64,000 nucleotides of DNA, taken from the human T2T-CHM13v2.0 reference genome, Homo sapiens. Shown here piece after piece: positions 14,270 to 46,878 of this stretch. The translations under genes and the position numbers were made by a program. The DNA is taken from the NCBI RefSeq assembly GCF_009914755.1, contig NC_060931.1. The stretch is one strand, 5' to 3'. Each line of letters begins with the position of its first letter. Positions within the stretch are counted from its first letter, which is position 1. A model generated the notes under the pieces. That model saw nothing but the letters and a program-made list of their open reading frames with translations, searched no databases and was not told the origin of the DNA.

Positions 14270-16214
14270 AGCCACTGCCTGAGGTGTACCTTGGCCCCTT
14301 TTAGCTGTGGCTGGAGCTGGAGCGGCTAGGATGCAGGGCACAGTGTCCCAAGGCTGCACAGGGCAGCTGGACTCTGAGCCTGGCCCACAAAACCATTTTT
14401 TCCTCCTAGGCCTCTGGGCCTGTGATGGGAGGGGCTGCTGTGAAGGTCTCTGGAATGCCCTGGAGACATTTTGCCCATTGTCTTGGCTATTAACATTCAG
14501 CTCCTCTTTAATTATGCAAATTTCTGCAGCAGGCTTGAATTTCTCCCCAGAAAAATGGCTTTTTCTTTTCTACCACATGGCTGGCCTGCAAATTTTCCAA
14601 ACTTTTATGCTCTGCTTCCCTTTTAAATACAAGTTCCAGTTTCAGAAAATCTCTTTGTTCAGCACATGAGCATATACTTTTAGAAACAACCAGGTCACAT
14701 CTTGAATACTTTGCTGCTTAGAAATTTCTTCTGCCAGATACCCTAAATCATCTCTCTCAAGTTCAAAGTTCCACAGATCCCTAGGGCAGGGGGGAAATGC
14801 TGCCAGTCTCTTTGCTAAAGCATAGCAAGAGTCACCTTTGCTCCACTTTCCAAGAAGTTCCTCATTCCCATCTGAGACCTCAGCCTGGACTTCATTGTCA
14901 ACATCACTATCAGCATTTTGGTCAAAAACCATTCAACAAGTCTCTAGGAAGTTCCAGACTGTCCCACATCTTCTTGTCTTCTTCTGAGCCCTCCAAACTG
15001 TTCCAACCTCTGCCTGTTATCCAGTTCCAAAGTCGCTTCCACATTTTCAGGTATCTTTATAGCAGTGTTTCACTCCTGGTAGTAATTTTCTGTATTAGCC
15101 CATTCTCATACTGCTATAAAGCACTACCTGAGACTGGGTAATTTATGAAGAAAAGAGGTTTAATTGACTCACAGTTCTGTAGGCTAAACAGGAAGCGTGA
15201 CTGGGAGGCCTCAGAAAATTTATAATCATGGCAGAAGGCAAAGGGGAAGCAAGCACATCTTACCGTGGCAGAGCAGGAGAGAGAGTGATGGGGGAAGTGC
15301 TAGACACTTCTAAATCATCAGATCTTGTGAGAACTCACTTGCTATCACGAGAATAGCAAGGGGGAAATTCACCCCCATGATCCAATCACCTCCCACCAAG
15401 CCCCTCCTCCAATTTGACATGAGATTTTGGTGAGGACACATATCCAAACCATATCAGATGGGGCCTGGTGATGATGATGCAGCTGATCAGAGAACCACAC
15501 TTGGTGTAGCCAGCCTCTAAATTCTGATGCTGTTACAGAATAGGGTGCCACCATGGCTGGGGTCTGACGGGAATGGCTGTGTTATATGTGTCTGGCCTGT
15601 GCCAGAGCCCAATGCGTTGCAGGAATAATGTGGGTGGAGTGGCCCAGGCTACTGCAGAGAGGGCCCTGAGGATAACTGTCAGGTTTCTGTCTTACTTTCC
15701 AAACGATGTGGGTCTGTGGAGCTTTACTAGATAGACATTAAATAAAAAGCTGCAGGGAAAAGAAAGCAGGGCCTGAGGCCCTTAAACTATAGCAGGCACA
15801 GTGGCAATAAGGGTGACTCAAGGCCCAAAGGGGAAAGGTTAGGACTCCGCAGGTTGGCTGGCTCAGGGCACCCATGGCATGCTGCCAACCTGAGCCATGT
15901 CAGACATGGGGCCTGGATGACACACATGCACCCTCAAGAAACCCCAGTCAGGAGGCCTCAGAGGGCCTCCAGGGTAAGCCTTAAAGATCCATGCAATTTT
16001 CTGGTACCCCACAGCAAGAAGCTACCCAGATGCCCATTAGCCCTTCTGCCCAGAGGTACATGAGGGCTCTGAGCACCTCACTCTCTCTCAGACGACCCAG
16101 GGATTTGAGAACTGACCTAGACAGGATCTCAAAACTTCTGACTGCAAGGCCAGAGCACTTTTCTCCACTCCAGGACATCGTGGTTCCATGTGTTGCTAAT
16201 AAAAGCAAACCCTG

Positions 16215-16605
16215 ATTAAGAACTATCCATTTGAAATACTTCACATAGCTTAGCTCATCTAATCTCCACAACTCTATATAGTAGCTGCTCTTTAAATCCT
16301 TATTTTCAAGATGAGTAAGCAAGCCTAGAGAGGCTAAGTAGCTTGCCCAAGCCACCCACTAATTGGCAGGGTCAGAATTTCAATCCAAATGCTATACAAC
16401 TGAACCTTCATTCTCGATTGCCACCCCTGCAGGACACACTAGGGCAGTGTTATTCCAGATGGAGCCCACAGCTCTGGATCGGAGGCATCAGTGCCTCTGG
16501 CAGGAAATGCCCCACCCTCCTGACCAGCTGAATGGGAATCTCAGGGGTGGGTCCAGGAATCTGTGCTTTACAAGCTCCTTGGATGAGTTTGCTATATGCT
16601 GAATA
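16215..16605. mobile_element. MIR (minus, about 16215-16420) and MER5A (about 16445-16605)
   Basis: agaggctaagtagcttgcccaag; ggggtgggtccaggaatctgtgctttacaagctcc. Confidence 0.65.
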
Positions 16606-16837
16606 TACCTATACTAGAGACATCCCTGAGGGAAGCTTATTTCCCAGGCCAGGCCAACAATAATAAGACCATATTACTATAGTAATATTATAATACATAT
16701 TACAGTTTTGAGTCAGAAGTTTTGAGATCCTGTCCAGGTCAGTTCTTGAATGCCTGGGTCCCCTGAGGGACAGGGAGGTACTCAGAGCTCTCATATACCT
16801 CTGGGCAGAAGAGCTAATGGCATCTGGATAGCTTCTT

Positions 16838-17104
16838 CTGTTTTTGTTTTTGTTTTTGTTTTTGAGACAGTCTCGCTCTGTCGCCCACGCTGGAGTGCAG
16901 TGGCACCATCTCGGCTCACTGCAATCTCTGCCTCCTGGATTCAAGCAATTCTCGTGCCTCAGCCTTCTGAGTAGCTGGGATTACAGGTGCCCACCAGCAA
17001 ACACAGCTACTTTTTGTATTTTTAGTAGAGACGGGGGTTTCCACCATGTTGGCCAGGCTGATCTTGAACTCCTGACCTCAGGTGATCTGCCTGCCTCAGC
17101 CCCA
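16838..17104 (-). mobile_element. 5'-truncated Alu with TSD ctggata(g/a)cttctt, splitting arm 2 of the inverted duplication
   Basis: TSD copies at 16824-16837 and 17105-17118. Confidence 0.92.
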
Positions 17105-17339
17105 CTGGATAACTTCTTGCTGTGGGGCACCAGTAAATTGCATGGATCCTAAGGGTTACCCTAGAAGCCCTCTGAGACCTCCTGACTGGGTTTCTTGAGG
17201 GTGCGTGTGTGGTGTCTAGGATCCAAGGCTGTCCATGTCACCCATGGGTCCTGGATGCCACACAGGACAGGTCTTCTTACAATAGTAGTAAGACCATAAG
17301 TGTAACTTGAAGTATAGACTTCACTGCTTAGCATAAACC

Positions 17340-17580
17340 CTGGGAGGCAGCTTGGTATATCAGAAAGAGATCACGTGTGGGCTCAAAACCAGCTCCAGCA
17401 GAAGGTACAAGCTTGGAAACTTTGGGCAAAGAACTTAACTTCTCTGAGCCTCACCTTCCTCATGTGGAGAATGGAAGTATACTATCTTACTCCCAGAGTT
17501 CATGTGGGCATCAAGTGAGATAACTAGGTAAAGTGCTGTGCTCCATATCTAGCACCCAGGAAAGACTCTGTAAATAGCAG
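17340..17580 (+). mobile_element. MIR
   Basis: ttgggcaaagaacttaacttctctgagcctcaccttcctcatgtggagaatgg. Confidence 0.75.
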
Positions 17581-44627: not shown

Positions 44628-44914
44628 GTGGTGTCAGATCCTTGTTCAAAGGACACATTGTCACGAACAGAGGCAAAGAGCCCCAACTGTCTCCTTTCAA
44701 GAGCTAGAACTTCAGAAGAGTAAGCATGCTCTGTCCTACAGGTGACTCTTAACCCGCAGTTGAGATGCCTGGCTTTATCTTCTGCAGAGATCTAGCCTTG
44801 AAATAAAGCTTGTGATCTAATTTCAAGATTACCAGCCTTTTTGTTGGTGTCCTCAAATATGCCTGCATCGGAGCAATAACCAGTGGCAATTTTCATATGG
44901 ACTCTCTCATCAGT

Positions 44915-45180
44915 ACAATAGGCAATAACCCTTACCTCAAGCTTAACATATGTGAGGCATTTGCCTTTTGTACATGAATCCACCCAATTTTCACAACCAC
45001 CCTATTATGTGTGTACTATGCTTATGCTCATTTTACAGAAGAGAAAACTGAGTGAGACACATAAAGGTAGAGTGAGACACACAGAGGTAGAGCAACTTTC
45101 CCAAGGCTGCACAACTAGAAATGTTGGAGCTGGGATGGGGATGCAGGCAATTTGGTTCCAGAGTCTGTGTCCTTCTACAC
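44915..45180 (-). mobile_element. MIR
   Basis: ctcattttacagaagagaaaactgag...gcaactttcccaaggctgcacaactag. Confidence 0.7.
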
Positions 45181-45279
45181 TACAAAAATGGCTACCACAT
45201 GCTGAGGGCTTACTCTGGGCAGGCACTTTCCAAACACTGACATTATTAATCCATTTTACACGCACAACCATTTAGCTAA
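45163..45279 (+). repeat. Donor copy of a 117-bp dispersed direct duplication
   Basis: Identical to 46753-46869 except at 2 positions. Confidence 0.95.
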
Positions 45280-46752
45280 GCTTGCAGACTGTTTATTTTC
45301 CATATTCATACTTCCAGGGAAGCTATTTTAATTTTAAACATAAGATGGCCAGCCATTACCCCCACTTCCCAAACACATACGCACAGCCTGGGCCCTCCTC
45401 CAAAACAGGTCACTGGCTGGGGATCCTATAGCTTCCCTTGACGAGTATCTTCCAGCATCCCACGATTCACCTCTCCCCCTCTCAACATGCTTATGCCCTC
45501 CCCAACTTCCAGTCCTTATCTCCCCAGCCAAAATCAGGAAGTGATTCTTTGTGGGCAGCTCAACCTCTGAAGGTCAAGCTCATTGCTTTTCAAATTAGAA
45601 TTTGAAGGGTCTTTTCCTCTCCTGGTCAGAGATGAGTGGGAGCTGTCAGATCTGGCCTCCCAGCTTCTGTAATTGATTTATATTTTGGTATAAAATAACT
45701 CTTGATTTTACTGAGGGAGTCAGAGGAGGGGAAGAGGTACAGGGGATCCACACGGAGGCAAAGAACAGACAGAAAATAAAGGAGAAGAAGAAAAACCAAG
45801 AATGATTACATATCTGTGCCAAGAACTGGGGCCAGGTACTCAGCACATTGCTCCTATTGCCAACAGCTGAGAGCGGTTAGGCAGTGTGTGGCAGGAAGCT
45901 GGATTGGAACCCAGTACTCCTTCAGCTGCACCTGAGTAAGAGTCCCAGGGAGGCTGCCGGCTGGCTCACTGTCTCCGACAAGCAGCAAGTCTTCTTCAGG
46001 AGAATTCTCGGTTGCATAAGGAGGCAGTTTACAGGACTCTAACAATCACTGTCACCTCTGGAAAGTCAAGGAAGGGAGCTCTCCAAGGTTCCCTGTGCCA
46101 CTCAGGGCGACACTGAGAAAGCAGATTGATCGCTTTAGAAGTCCGTGACTATGCTGAATGTTACATAGCTGCATTGCAGCAGCCTAGGAGGTGGCCACAC
46201 TCATGTGGCCTTCTTGGACCTTCTGACCCACCAGCCATAAATGCTAACAATGCCAAATGCGGCACAGCTTCCTTTCAGAATCAGTCAGCAAGACACCCTG
46301 TGGTTCATGCTTCCCTCCAAATCTGCTTGCTAACTTATGAGGAAATAGATCTTTCCGCCTCAGTAACAACAAAATTGGTCTTTGCATCTGCGAAAATTAT
46401 GCTCTAGATGACAGCAATCCTGAACATTAATCAAGTATCAATCACTGACATGAGTGGAAAATGGAGCTGGCGTCTTTATTTAAGTCTTGTTTTGAGCAAA
46501 GCAAAGCAAGGACTGATTGCGGAGAAAACCCTTTAATGGGTTTGAAACAGCACGTTGCAGCATGAGCTTGATGGCTGAGGTCTGGTTCAATGCCCAGTTC
46601 TCTCTCTAAATGGCTGTGCTCCTTGTGCCTCAGTTTTCCCATTTGTTAAAAAACAGAAAAATCATCACCTCTCAAGTCACCAAAGGATTAAATGAGACAA
46701 CACATCCCCACACAGAAACAATGATCTATTAGATATATTCAGAATAACCTGG

Positions 46753-46878
46753 GTCTGTGTCCTTCTACACTACAAAAATGGCTACCACATGCTGAGGGCT
46801 TACTCTGGGCAGGCACTTTCCAAACACTGACATTATTAATCCATTTTACATGCACAACCATTTATCTAAATGGTTGTG
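46753..46878 (+). repeat. Derived copy of the 117-bp duplication ending in a fold-back palindrome
   Basis: cacaaccattta-tc-taaatggttgtg (46853-46878). Confidence 0.93.

What the first reader, a model, noticed from the sequence alone, without database searches (positions are those of the whole stretch)
15905..46878. Recurrent local templated copy-paste: four 117-480 bp insertions copied from donors 0.6-2.3 kb away, at different ages
Seen: four donor/copy pairs within 31 kb. (1) 15905-16143 to 16711-17235, inverted, about 88%. (2) 24776-24897 to 22437-22558, direct, about 97%. (3) 27974-28461 to 26362-26843, inverted, about 95% in the unique part. (4) 45163-45279 to 46753-46869, direct, about 98%. 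None ends in a poly-A tail, they begin or end inside elements rather than at element boundaries, and junctions carry fold-back palindromes or short flanking duplications. Established: such junctions are typical of polymerase-theta-mediated end joining and replication template switching (MMBIR/FoSTeS). Inference: this locus may have been a long-lived germline hotspot for break repair that copies nearby DNA. These copies are below the usual 1-kb segmental-duplication cut-off and are partly hidden by repeat masking. The genomic background rate is unknown to me.
Basis: partly seen in the sequence, partly recalled or inferred. Interest (0 to 1): 0.8.

Follow-up and report, generated by a model that had tools for sequence, protein, structure and literature searches.

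The report
Four short nearby DNA copy-paste duplications
Four short pieces of an ATXN7L1 intron were each copied, at different times, to a spot 0.6-2.2 kb away by error-prone DNA repair or replication, a kind of event already described genome-wide; whether this stretch is a true hotspot is not shown.

Summary
All four donor/copy pairs exist at the stated coordinates and identities (88%, 97.5%, 93-96%, 98%). Three contain sequence found nowhere else in the genome. The fourth is an Alu left arm whose neighbour is its closest relative. They are DNA-level local copies, not independent repeat insertions, LTR pairs or tandem duplications.

Donor and copy could be told apart for pairs 2, 3 and 4. Only pair 4 carries a fold-back junction, and only pair 2 carries a flanking duplication (14 nt).

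The events fit a published class in length, distance and junction scars: the "repair-mediated duplications" of Pace et al. 2009 (824 proximal cases) and the related "doublets" of Thomas et al. 2004. Copies of 117-489 bp are far longer than documented polymerase-theta insertions (2-35 bp). Only the 9-nt snap-back of pair 4 is on that scale.

On the hotspot claim, the same pipeline found 1 comparable pair (2 if pairs of 60 bp or more count) in 24 random 10-kb control stretches. That is a nominal 6-12-fold excess (P 0.014-0.034). But the window was chosen because of these pairs, and tens to hundreds of such windows are expected genome-wide by chance. The hotspot is neither shown nor excluded. Primate orthologues could not be examined.

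The parts
15905..16147 (+). Pair 1, arm A of an old inverted duplication. Weak similarity may extend out to about 15853.
   Evidence: Searches give 88-89% identity to arm B. The own-genome search finds only the local copies. Which arm is the donor could not be determined.
16708..17235 (-). Pair 1, arm B, the inverted partner of arm A. It is split by a later Alu insertion.
   Evidence: Alignment. K2P distance is 0.10-0.12.
16838..17104 (-). 5'-truncated Alu inserted into arm B after the duplication. It is flanked by a 14-nt target-site duplication at 16824-16837 and 17105-17118 (13 of 14 identical).
   Evidence: Read from the sequence and the alignment. Arm A holds the target sequence once.
24776..24897 (+). 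Pair 2 donor: the left arm of a full-length Alu.
   Evidence: 44 HSPs to other Alus span its left boundary and 124 span its right boundary, so the interspersed repeat runs on past both ends.
22437..22558 (+). Pair 2 copy, 122 nt, 97.5% identical to the donor. It ends in the donor's A-rich linker.
   Evidence: No HSP to any other locus spans either boundary. The neighbour is the best genome-wide match among 40 scored of 896 candidates.
22419..22432 (+). Left copy of the 14-nt flanking duplication CTGCCTCTTGCCTA. It is followed by 4 nt of filler (22433-22436).
   Evidence: A direct repeat of 14 nt or more was seen at 1.2% of random sites.
22560..22573 (+). Right copy of the 14-nt flanking duplication. 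It is preceded by 1 nt of filler (22559).
27974..28461 (-). Pair 3 donor: the head of one Alu, a whole second Alu with its A-tail, and 82 nt of unique flank.
   Evidence: 127 HSPs span 27974, so an Alu runs on beyond the boundary. The unique flank has only the two local places in the genome.
26362..26843 (+). Pair 3 copy, inverted, 482 nt. It is inserted in or at the edge of an ancient interspersed repeat.
   Evidence: All 52 Alu HSPs stop at 26843. An ancient repeat (4 unrelated hits) ends at 26341-26363. It resumes collinearly after 26844 with about 9 nt missing, though this is of borderline score.
45163..45279 (+). Pair 4 donor. It ends at the 8-nt palindrome TTAGCTAA (45272-45279).
   Evidence: 3 of 4 nhmmer hits to unrelated loci run across 45163, so an ancient repeat continues through the left boundary.
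46753..46869 (+). Pair 4 copy, 117 nt, 98.3% identical to the donor.
   Evidence: The genome holds only these two places.
46870..46878 (+). 9 nt (ATGGTTGTG) that are the reverse complement of the copy's own 46853-46861. With the copy's end they form a 12-nt stem with a 2-nt loop (46853-46878). This is the scar of a strand switch or snap-back.
   Evidence: the 12-nt stem was reached by 2 of 1500 random sites. It is absent from the donor.

Best explanation
These are four separate, differently aged, short proximal duplications. Each was made when a broken or stalled DNA end used nearby DNA (0.6-2.2 kb away, either strand) as a template, copied 117-489 nt, and was rejoined. Two are inverted (pairs 1 and 3) and two are direct (pairs 2 and 4). 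They are ordinary members of the published class of repair-mediated proximal duplications.

**Shown.** The copies are local and, outside the Alu parts, single-copy. The donor-to-copy direction is known for pairs 2, 3 and 4. Pair 4 carries a strand switch at a palindrome. Pair 2 has a 14-nt flanking duplication plus filler. The ages differ, from about 2% to about 12% divergence.

**Inferred.** A break or stalled fork was the trigger. Long synthesis was of the strand-invasion or template-switch type, with end joining at the last step. The clustering of four in 31 kb is, on present evidence, not distinguishable from the upper tail of a genome-wide background.
For: - **Local, single-copy origin.**
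- **Not repeat families.** The only other local pair in the window (12365-13446 / 15093-15456) and the control pair in L010 are high-copy LTR-like repeats. They gave 7973 and 9726 first-look candidates, which shows the test can tell the two cases apart.
- **Alu pairs stand out.** Ordinary neighbouring Alu pairs never exceeded their best unrelated match. The 11 control rows had margins of -6.8 to +0.1 and the 5 window rows were negative. Pairs 2 and 3 exceed it by +6.5 and +10.8 points.
- **Direction of copying.**
- **Junction scars.**
- **Spacers are mostly single-copy.** The pair 4 spacer has 0 of 1473 bases hit by any other locus. The pair 2 spacer has 748 of 2217 hit. This excludes 'tandem duplication later split by insertions'.
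- **Fit to the published class** (PMC2671141, sections read). It comprises 824 duplications with the donor under 5 kb away; 753 (66%) of the paper's 1,136 duplicons lie under 3 kb apart. Mean length is 162 bp and the maximum 619 bp, with a distance peak near 1.2 kb. Junctions carry microhomology, 1-68 nt of filler, 1-15 nt deletions, or 4-21 nt target-site duplications (6 of 39 proximal cases). None of the 39 had a poly-A/T tail.
- **Different ages.** K2P distances are 0.017, 0.025, 0.059 and 0.10-0.12. An Alu with its own target-site duplication is nested in pair 1.
Against: - No outgroup sequence was available. There is therefore no empty site, no exact junction reconstruction and no independent dating.
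- The direction of pair 1 is unknown, and its junctions show nothing significant.
- Pair 2 looks superficially like a retrotransposition: a 14-nt flanking duplication, an A-rich 3' end, and boundaries close to those of an Alu left monomer.
- The last roughly 70 nt of the pair 3 copy (the head of a second Alu) is only 88% like its presumed donor. It is up to 93% like unrelated Alus (8 of 69 against 16 of 376 mismatches, Fisher P=0.02). That part may have another donor or have been converted later.
- The window does hold nominally more events than the controls: 4 in 64 kb against 1-2 in 240 kb. This speaks for a locally raised rate rather than pure background.
Confidence: 0.72

Rival explanations
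1. This is a true long-lived regional hotspot. The stretch from 15.9 to 46.9 kb has a persistently raised rate of breaks or fork stalls that are repaired by copying nearby DNA, which is why four events accumulated over roughly 50 million years.
For: - The same pipeline found 4 events in the window against 1 (100 bp or more) or 2 (60 bp or more) in 24 random 10-kb stretches. After edge correction the rate ratio is 12.5 or 6.3, with conditional binomial P of 0.014 or 0.034.
- Three events lie within 12.6 kb.
- The ages differ, so this was not one complex event.
- Possible fragile sequences lie nearby: (TA)39 at 29911-29988, an 833-bp (TCCA)n array at 35683-36515, and (CA)23 at 18847.
- If regions with roughly tenfold higher rates exist at all, most windows holding 4 events would lie in them (my inference).
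Against: - The window was picked because it has these pairs.
- At the control rate, 16-200 windows of 64 kb with 4 or more events are expected genome-wide under a Poisson model. With the uncertainty of the rate included, the figure is 370-1100.
- Controls are few: 24 of the 160 stretches drawn. They are unmatched for Alu or GC content, and the thresholds were fixed after seeing the pairs.
- Pace et al. saw 'no trend ... to form clusters' among 824 events.
- No further, shorter or older local copies turned up in the window under relaxed searches.
- The remaining 33 kb of the window has none.
- The PRDM9-type 13-mer is not at any junction, and its excess (8 against 2 expected) is carried by Alus.
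Confidence: 0.25
2. Pair 2 alone has a different origin. Either it is an Alu left-monomer retrocopy (target-primed reverse transcription primed on the internal A-rich linker), or it is an older monomer insertion later homogenised by gene conversion from the Alu 2.2 kb away.
For: - It has a 14-nt flanking duplication in the size range of L1-driven insertions.
- The insert ends in the A-rich linker and starts about 10 nt into the Alu.
Against: - The A-run is templated from the donor and no extra tail is present.
- The target does not resemble the T-rich L1 endonuclease site, because the duplication starts with CTGCC. The consensus used for this comparison is recalled, not tested.
- A retrocopy landing 2.2 kb from its source would be a rare coincidence (inference).
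- Gene conversion would have to reach within 3 nt of the edge of homology, where the shared private T in GCTTACG lies, and cover all 122 nt.
- No ordinary neighbouring Alu pair showed such homogenisation: 0 of 11 control rows and 0 of 5 other window rows.
- Proximal repair duplications with 4-21 nt target-site duplications are documented in 6 of 39 cases.
Confidence: 0.2
3. The pairs are independent insertions of one repeat family, the two LTRs of one element, or the terminal inverted repeats of a DNA transposon.
For: - Pairs 2 and 3 contain Alu sequence.
- Pair 4 overlaps an ancient repeat.
- A real LTR pair lies just upstream, at 12365-15456.
Against: - The segments of pairs 1, 3 and 4 occur only at their two local places in 3.1 Gb.
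- The identities of pairs 2 and 3 exceed every unrelated Alu by 6-11 points.
- The copies start or stop in the middle of elements.
Confidence: 0.02
4. The pairs arose as tandem duplications whose two copies were later pushed apart by insertions.
For: Pairs 2 and 4 are direct repeats.
Against: - The pair 4 spacer (1473 bp) has no match to any other locus by blastn or nhmmer. 1469 of the 2217 bp of the pair 2 spacer are likewise unmatched, so the spacers are not inserted repeats.
- The pair 2 copy has its own flanking duplication.
- Pairs 1 and 3 are inverted.
Confidence: 0.03

Closest known systems
[quoted passage not shown]
   Same: - Both are short: 117-489 bp here, against a mean of 162 bp and maximum of 619 bp.
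- The donor lies 0.6-2.2 kb away on the same chromosome, against a published peak near 1.2 kb, with 753 (66%) of the paper's 1,136 duplicons under 3 kb apart.
- Either orientation occurs.
- There is no added poly-A tail.
- Junctions carry filler, small deletions or 4-21 nt target-site duplications.
- Events are spread over primate history.
   Different: - None of the four appears in their Table S1. I found no ATXN7L1 row and no chr7 row at 105.10-105.20 Mb. The hg18 coordinates I searched are my own recalled conversion.
- Their method needed an acceptor inside an annotated repeat, and only pair 3 plausibly meets that.
- They reported no clustering, whereas here four lie in 31 kb.
'Doublets' (Thomas et al. 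2004, PNAS). I know this only through Pace et al.'s description and my own recollection; the paper is not held.
   Same: Both are short local copy-paste duplications with partners about 1 kb apart.
   Different: Doublets were defined as exact or near-exact matches under 100 bp. These pairs are longer and up to 12% diverged.
Polymerase-theta-mediated end joining with templated or snap-back insertions
   Same: The 9-nt inverted addition at the end of the pair 4 copy is a snap-back-type templated insertion of the documented size (2-35 bp and 5-15 bp).
   Different: The main copied tracts are 117-489 bp, taken from 0.6-2.2 kb away. That is well beyond those sizes. Dependence on polymerase theta cannot be read from the sequence.
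Replication template switching (FoSTeS/MMBIR; short-range template switches)
   Same: Both show inverted copies of nearby sequence and a strand switch at a palindrome.
   Different: Published short-range switches are mostly tens of bases, and MMBIR events are kilobases to megabases and often complex. These are simple single-segment insertions of intermediate size.
Segmental duplications
   Same: Both are low-copy duplicated DNA.
   Different: These fall below the 1 kb length criterion, and two of the four are below 90% identity. Pace et al. argue for a distinct mechanism.

Membership tests
Repair-mediated proximal duplication (Pace et al. 2009) | The inserted sequence is 50 bp or more and is found at only one other place in the genome. 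| tested here: met
   Pairs 1, 3 (unique flank) and 4 have two local places only. For pair 2 the neighbour matches at 98% against 93-95% or less for the rest, but only 40 of 896 candidates were scored.
Repair-mediated proximal duplication (Pace et al. 2009) | Donor and acceptor lie on the same chromosome, less than 5 kb but more than 50 bp apart. | tested here: met
   The gaps are 560-567, 2217, 1130 and 1473 bp.
Repair-mediated proximal duplication (Pace et al. 2009) | There is no added poly-A/T tail at an end of the acceptor. | tested here: met
   Pairs 1, 3 and 4 have none. Pair 2 ends in an A-rich run that is present in the donor, so it is templated.
Repair-mediated proximal duplication (Pace et al. 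2009) | Junctions carry microhomology, filler, a small deletion or a target-site duplication. | tested here: inconclusive
   Pair 2 has a 14-nt duplication plus 4 nt and 1 nt of filler. Pair 4 has a 9-nt inverted filler. Pair 3 has about 9 nt of the interrupted repeat missing, with a borderline score. Pair 1 shows nothing significant. Exact junctions need an empty orthologous site.
Repair-mediated proximal duplication (Pace et al. 2009) | An empty site is present in an outgroup species. | not testable with these tools
   No primate genomes are held.
Polymerase-theta end-joining templated insertion | The insertion is a few to about 35 nt long and is copied from sequence at or near the break. 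| tested here: not met
   The main copies are 117-489 nt, from 0.6-2.2 kb away. The size range comes from PMC7454005. Only the 9-nt snap-back of pair 4 fits.
Polymerase-theta end-joining templated insertion | The event depends on POLQ. | not testable with these tools
   This needs genetics.
L1-driven retrotransposition (target-primed reverse transcription) | There is an untemplated poly-A tail, a 7-20 nt target-site duplication and a T-rich nick site. | tested here: not met
   Pairs 1, 3 and 4 have no tail, and their flanking repeats are 7 nt or less, within chance. Pair 2 has the duplication, but its tail is templated and its target starts with CTGCC. The nick-site consensus is recalled.
Segmental duplication | Length is 1 kb or more and identity 90% or more. 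| tested here: not met
   Lengths are 117-489 bp.
LTR pair or other interspersed repeat family | Many copies are dispersed in the genome. | tested here: not met
   Searches give two places each. The true LTR pairs used as positive controls gave 7973 and 9726 candidates.

The most novel reading that the evidence does not exclude
A roughly 31-kb stretch of an ATXN7L1 intron has been a persistent hot region for proximal repair-mediated duplication, from about 50 million years ago to under 10. This would be the first documented cluster of such events. It would contradict the reported absence of clustering and point to a stable local cause of breaks or fork stalls, for example the nearby (TA)n and (TCCA)n arrays.
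Probability: 0.25. Interest if true: 0.6.

Novelty: new member of a known kind. Interest (0 to 1): 0.3.

Why it matters
Short proximal duplications are a real but little-catalogued source of structural change, because they fall below the 1-kb cut-off for segmental duplications. These four are clean examples. The pair 4 junction records the polymerase switching strands at an 8-nt palindrome.

If a whole-genome count showed that such events cluster, it would reveal stable local fragility in the germline. Earlier surveys had too few events (824) to see that. As it stands, the finding adds instances to a known class and poses a question about clustering that can be tested.

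Tried and rejected
- **Independent repeat insertions, LTR pairs or transposon inverted repeats.** Rejected by the own-genome searches, with true LTR pairs as positive controls.
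- **Tandem duplication split by later insertions.** Rejected because the spacers are mostly single-copy.
- **PRDM9-type motif CCNCCNTNNCCNC** (motif recalled). It gave 8 hits against 2 expected. Several of the matched sequences look Alu-derived to me (recalled), and none lies at a junction. It therefore gives no support for a meiotic hotspot.
- **Fold-back palindromes and flanking duplications at all junctions.** Only 1 of 16 sites and 1 of 4 copies stand out.
- **Direction of pair 1.** No ancient repeat spans any of its boundaries, so this stays undetermined. A weak self-palindrome at 17204-17266 (E=0.006) was not pursued.
- **More sensitive or relaxed searches for further local copies.** These used 40-50 bp or more, 80% or more or any identity, and distances up to 5 kb. 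They added none in the window.
- **Larger control set.** I drew 160 random stretches. One, L013, was satellite DNA (32,736 TRF-covered bases summed over overlapping rows, in a 10-kb stretch) and was dropped.
- **Literature on ATXN7L1 with fragile sites or breakpoints.** None of the 12 papers listed holds ATXN7L1 (listing only).
- **Thomas et al. 2004.** The paper is not held.

Full report

All four pairs are present.
- Pair 1 is 15901/15905-16147 against 16708-17235, inverted, 88-89%.
- Pair 2 is 22437-22558 against 24776-24897, direct, with 3 mismatches in 122.
- Pair 3 is 26362-26843 against 27974-28461, inverted. It is 93.5% identical over 489 aligned columns and 96% over a 319-nt core.
- Pair 4 is 45163-45279 against 46753-46869, direct, with 2 mismatches in 117.

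In a self-alignment of the whole window (blastn, word 11, no masking) they are the only non-tandem pairs within 3 kb at 93% or more.

**2. Are they copies of each other or members of repeat families?**

The window's own 3.1-Gb assembly could be searched.
- The pair 4 segment, the pair 1 arm and the 82-nt non-Alu flank of pair 3 each occur only at their two local places.
- The pair 2 segment is an Alu left arm. Its neighbour is the best match at 98%, and the next best are 93-95%. Only 40 of 896 first-look candidates were scored, so this is a lower-bound search.

As positive controls, the one other local pair in the window (12365-13446 against 15093-15456) and a control pair in L010 gave 7973 and 9726 candidates. 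Each shows dozens of full-length matches at 82-89%. They are the two LTRs of ordinary LTR elements; the family name is only recalled.

Ordinary neighbouring Alu pairs never exceeded their best unrelated Alu. The 11 control rows had margins of -6.8 to +0.1, and the 5 window rows were all negative. Pairs 2 and 3 exceed it by +6.5 and +10.8 points.

**3. Anatomy**

*Pair 4.* nhmmer shows an ancient interspersed repeat running across the left boundary of the 45163 copy: 3 of 4 hits to unrelated loci span it. So 45163-45279 is the donor. The donor ends at an 8-nt palindrome, TTAGCTAA. In the copy this point is followed by 9 nt (46870-46878) that are the reverse complement of the copy's own preceding bases. 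Together they form a 12-nt stem with a 2-nt loop, which is absent from the donor. Only 2 of 1500 random sites carry such a stem. This is direct evidence that the copying polymerase switched strands at the palindrome before the end was joined.

*Pair 2.* Both donor boundaries lie inside an Alu, with 44 and 124 HSPs spanning them. No HSP spans the boundaries of the copy. The copy is flanked by a 14-nt direct duplication, CTGCCTCTTGCCTA, with 4 nt and 1 nt of filler. It ends in the A-rich linker that the donor also has.

*Pair 3.* The donor consists of the head of one Alu, a whole second Alu with its tail, and 82 nt of unique flank. An Alu continues beyond 27974 (127 spanning HSPs). In the copy, all 52 Alu HSPs stop at 26843. 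The copy sits in an ancient repeat that ends at 26341-26363 (4 unrelated hits). That repeat seems to resume after 26844 with about 9 nt lost. The resumption is collinear in 3 of 4 homologues, but the scores are borderline (42 against a shuffle maximum of 43).

The last roughly 70 nt of the pair 3 copy are only 88% like the presumed donor and up to 93% like unrelated Alus. They may stem from a second donor or from later conversion. This remains unexplained.

*Pair 1.* Arm B is split by a 5'-truncated Alu with its own 14-nt target-site duplication, while arm A holds that target once. The duplication is therefore older than that Alu. No boundary is spanned by a repeat and no junction feature is significant, so donor and copy cannot be told apart.

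**4. Ages**

K2P distances are 0.017 (pair 4), 0.025 (pair 2), 0.059 (pair 3) and 0.10-0.12 (pair 1). With an assumed 2.2e-9 substitutions per site per year between copies (my assumption), these correspond to about 8, 11, 27 and 50 million years. The errors are large for the two short pairs.

**5. Mechanism**

The events match the 'repair-mediated duplications' of Pace et al. 2009 (PMC2671141). I read the abstract and sections 6, 7, 11 and 14, and selected passages of sections 15 and 17.
- That study reported 824 duplications with the donor under 5 kb away; 753 (66%) of its 1,136 duplicons were under 3 kb apart.
- Mean length was 162 bp and the maximum 619 bp, with a distance peak near 1.2 kb.
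- Junctions carried microhomology, 1-68 nt of filler, 1-15 nt deletions or 4-21 nt target-site duplications (6 of 39 proximal cases). None of the 39 had a poly-A/T tail.
- The authors attribute the events to synthesis-dependent strand annealing at double-strand breaks. They link them to the earlier 'doublets' of Thomas et al. 2004, a paper that is not held here.

Documented POLQ insertions are 2-35 bp and 5-15 bp, including a snap-back class (PMC7454005, passages read). The 9-nt snap-back of pair 4 is on that scale. The copies of 117-489 nt are not.

My reading is inferred, not shown. Long synthesis occurred on a nearby template after strand invasion or a replication template switch, with an end-joining step at the close. 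Replication-based switching (FoSTeS/MMBIR) cannot be separated from break repair on sequence alone.

For pair 2, retrotransposition or gene conversion remains a minority reading (see the rival explanations).

**6. Hotspot?**

One was satellite DNA and was dropped, leaving 24 stretches, or 240 kb, with GC 0.33-0.57 against 0.451 for the window.

The same pipeline required 100 bp or more, 85% or more, a gap of 30-3000 bp, no tandem repeat, and either specificity to the locus or a margin of 5 points or more over unrelated matches.
- In the controls it found one comparable event: L014 8117-8239 against 9440-9559, direct, 88%, with two places in the genome.
- At 60 bp or more it found a second: L022 1051-1113 against 2462-2524, 97%.
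- The window has four.

Edge-corrected rate ratios are 12.5 and 6.3, with conditional binomial P of 0.014 and 0.034.

Against this stand several points.
- The thresholds were set after seeing the pairs.
- The controls are few and unmatched.
- The window was selected for these pairs.
- At the control rate, 16-200 such windows are expected genome-wide under a Poisson model. Allowing for the uncertainty of the rate gives 370-1100.
- Pace et al. saw no clustering among their 824 events.

Conversely, if tenfold-hotter regions exist at all, a window with four events would most likely lie in one (my inference). I put the hotspot reading at about 0.25.

No junction carries the PRDM9-type motif. Simple repeats that could stall forks lie nearby, but this is only a lead.

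**7. Novelty**

The class is known. These four instances are not in Table S1 of Pace et al. I found no ATXN7L1 row and no chr7 row at 105.10-105.20 Mb in hg18. The coordinate conversion is recalled and approximate, and the gene may have had another name in 2009. The cluster is suggestive but unproven. Primate orthologues, human polymorphism, and break or replication maps could not be examined with these tools.

Noticed in passing
window 12365-15456: This is an LTR element with two roughly 360-bp LTRs: 12365-13446, split by Alu insertions, and 15093-15456. The LTRs are 86-89% alike and belong to a high-copy family (7973 first-look candidates).
   Followed up: yes
window 35683-36515: An 833-bp (TCCA)n tetranucleotide array of about 211 copies with 85% matches.
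   Followed up: no
window 29911-29988 and 18847-18892: (TA)39 and (CA)23 microsatellites. The (TA)n tract lies 1.5 kb from the pair 3 donor and could form a cruciform or stall forks. This is speculation only.
   Followed up: no
window 26772-26843 vs 27974-28045: The Alu-head end of the pair 3 copy is much more diverged from its presumed donor than the rest of the copy: 8 of 69 against 16 of 376 mismatches, Fisher P=0.02. It is closer to unrelated Alus. Possible causes are a second donor or later Alu-Alu conversion.
   Followed up: partly
L014 8117-8239 / 9440-9559 (G000:C20:40680564-40682003): A control-stretch example of the same kind of event: a 123-bp direct copy 1.2 kb away, 88-89% identical, with only two places in the genome.
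   Followed up: partly
L022 1051-1113 / 2462-2524: A 63-bp direct local pair at 97%, 1.35 kb apart, in a random control stretch. It looks like the 'doublets' as Pace et al. describe them.
   Followed up: no
window 17204-17266: A weak self-complementary stretch at the outer end of pair 1 arm B (nhmmer E=0.006). Arm A has a 7-nt palindrome at the matching place (15895-15909).
   Followed up: partly
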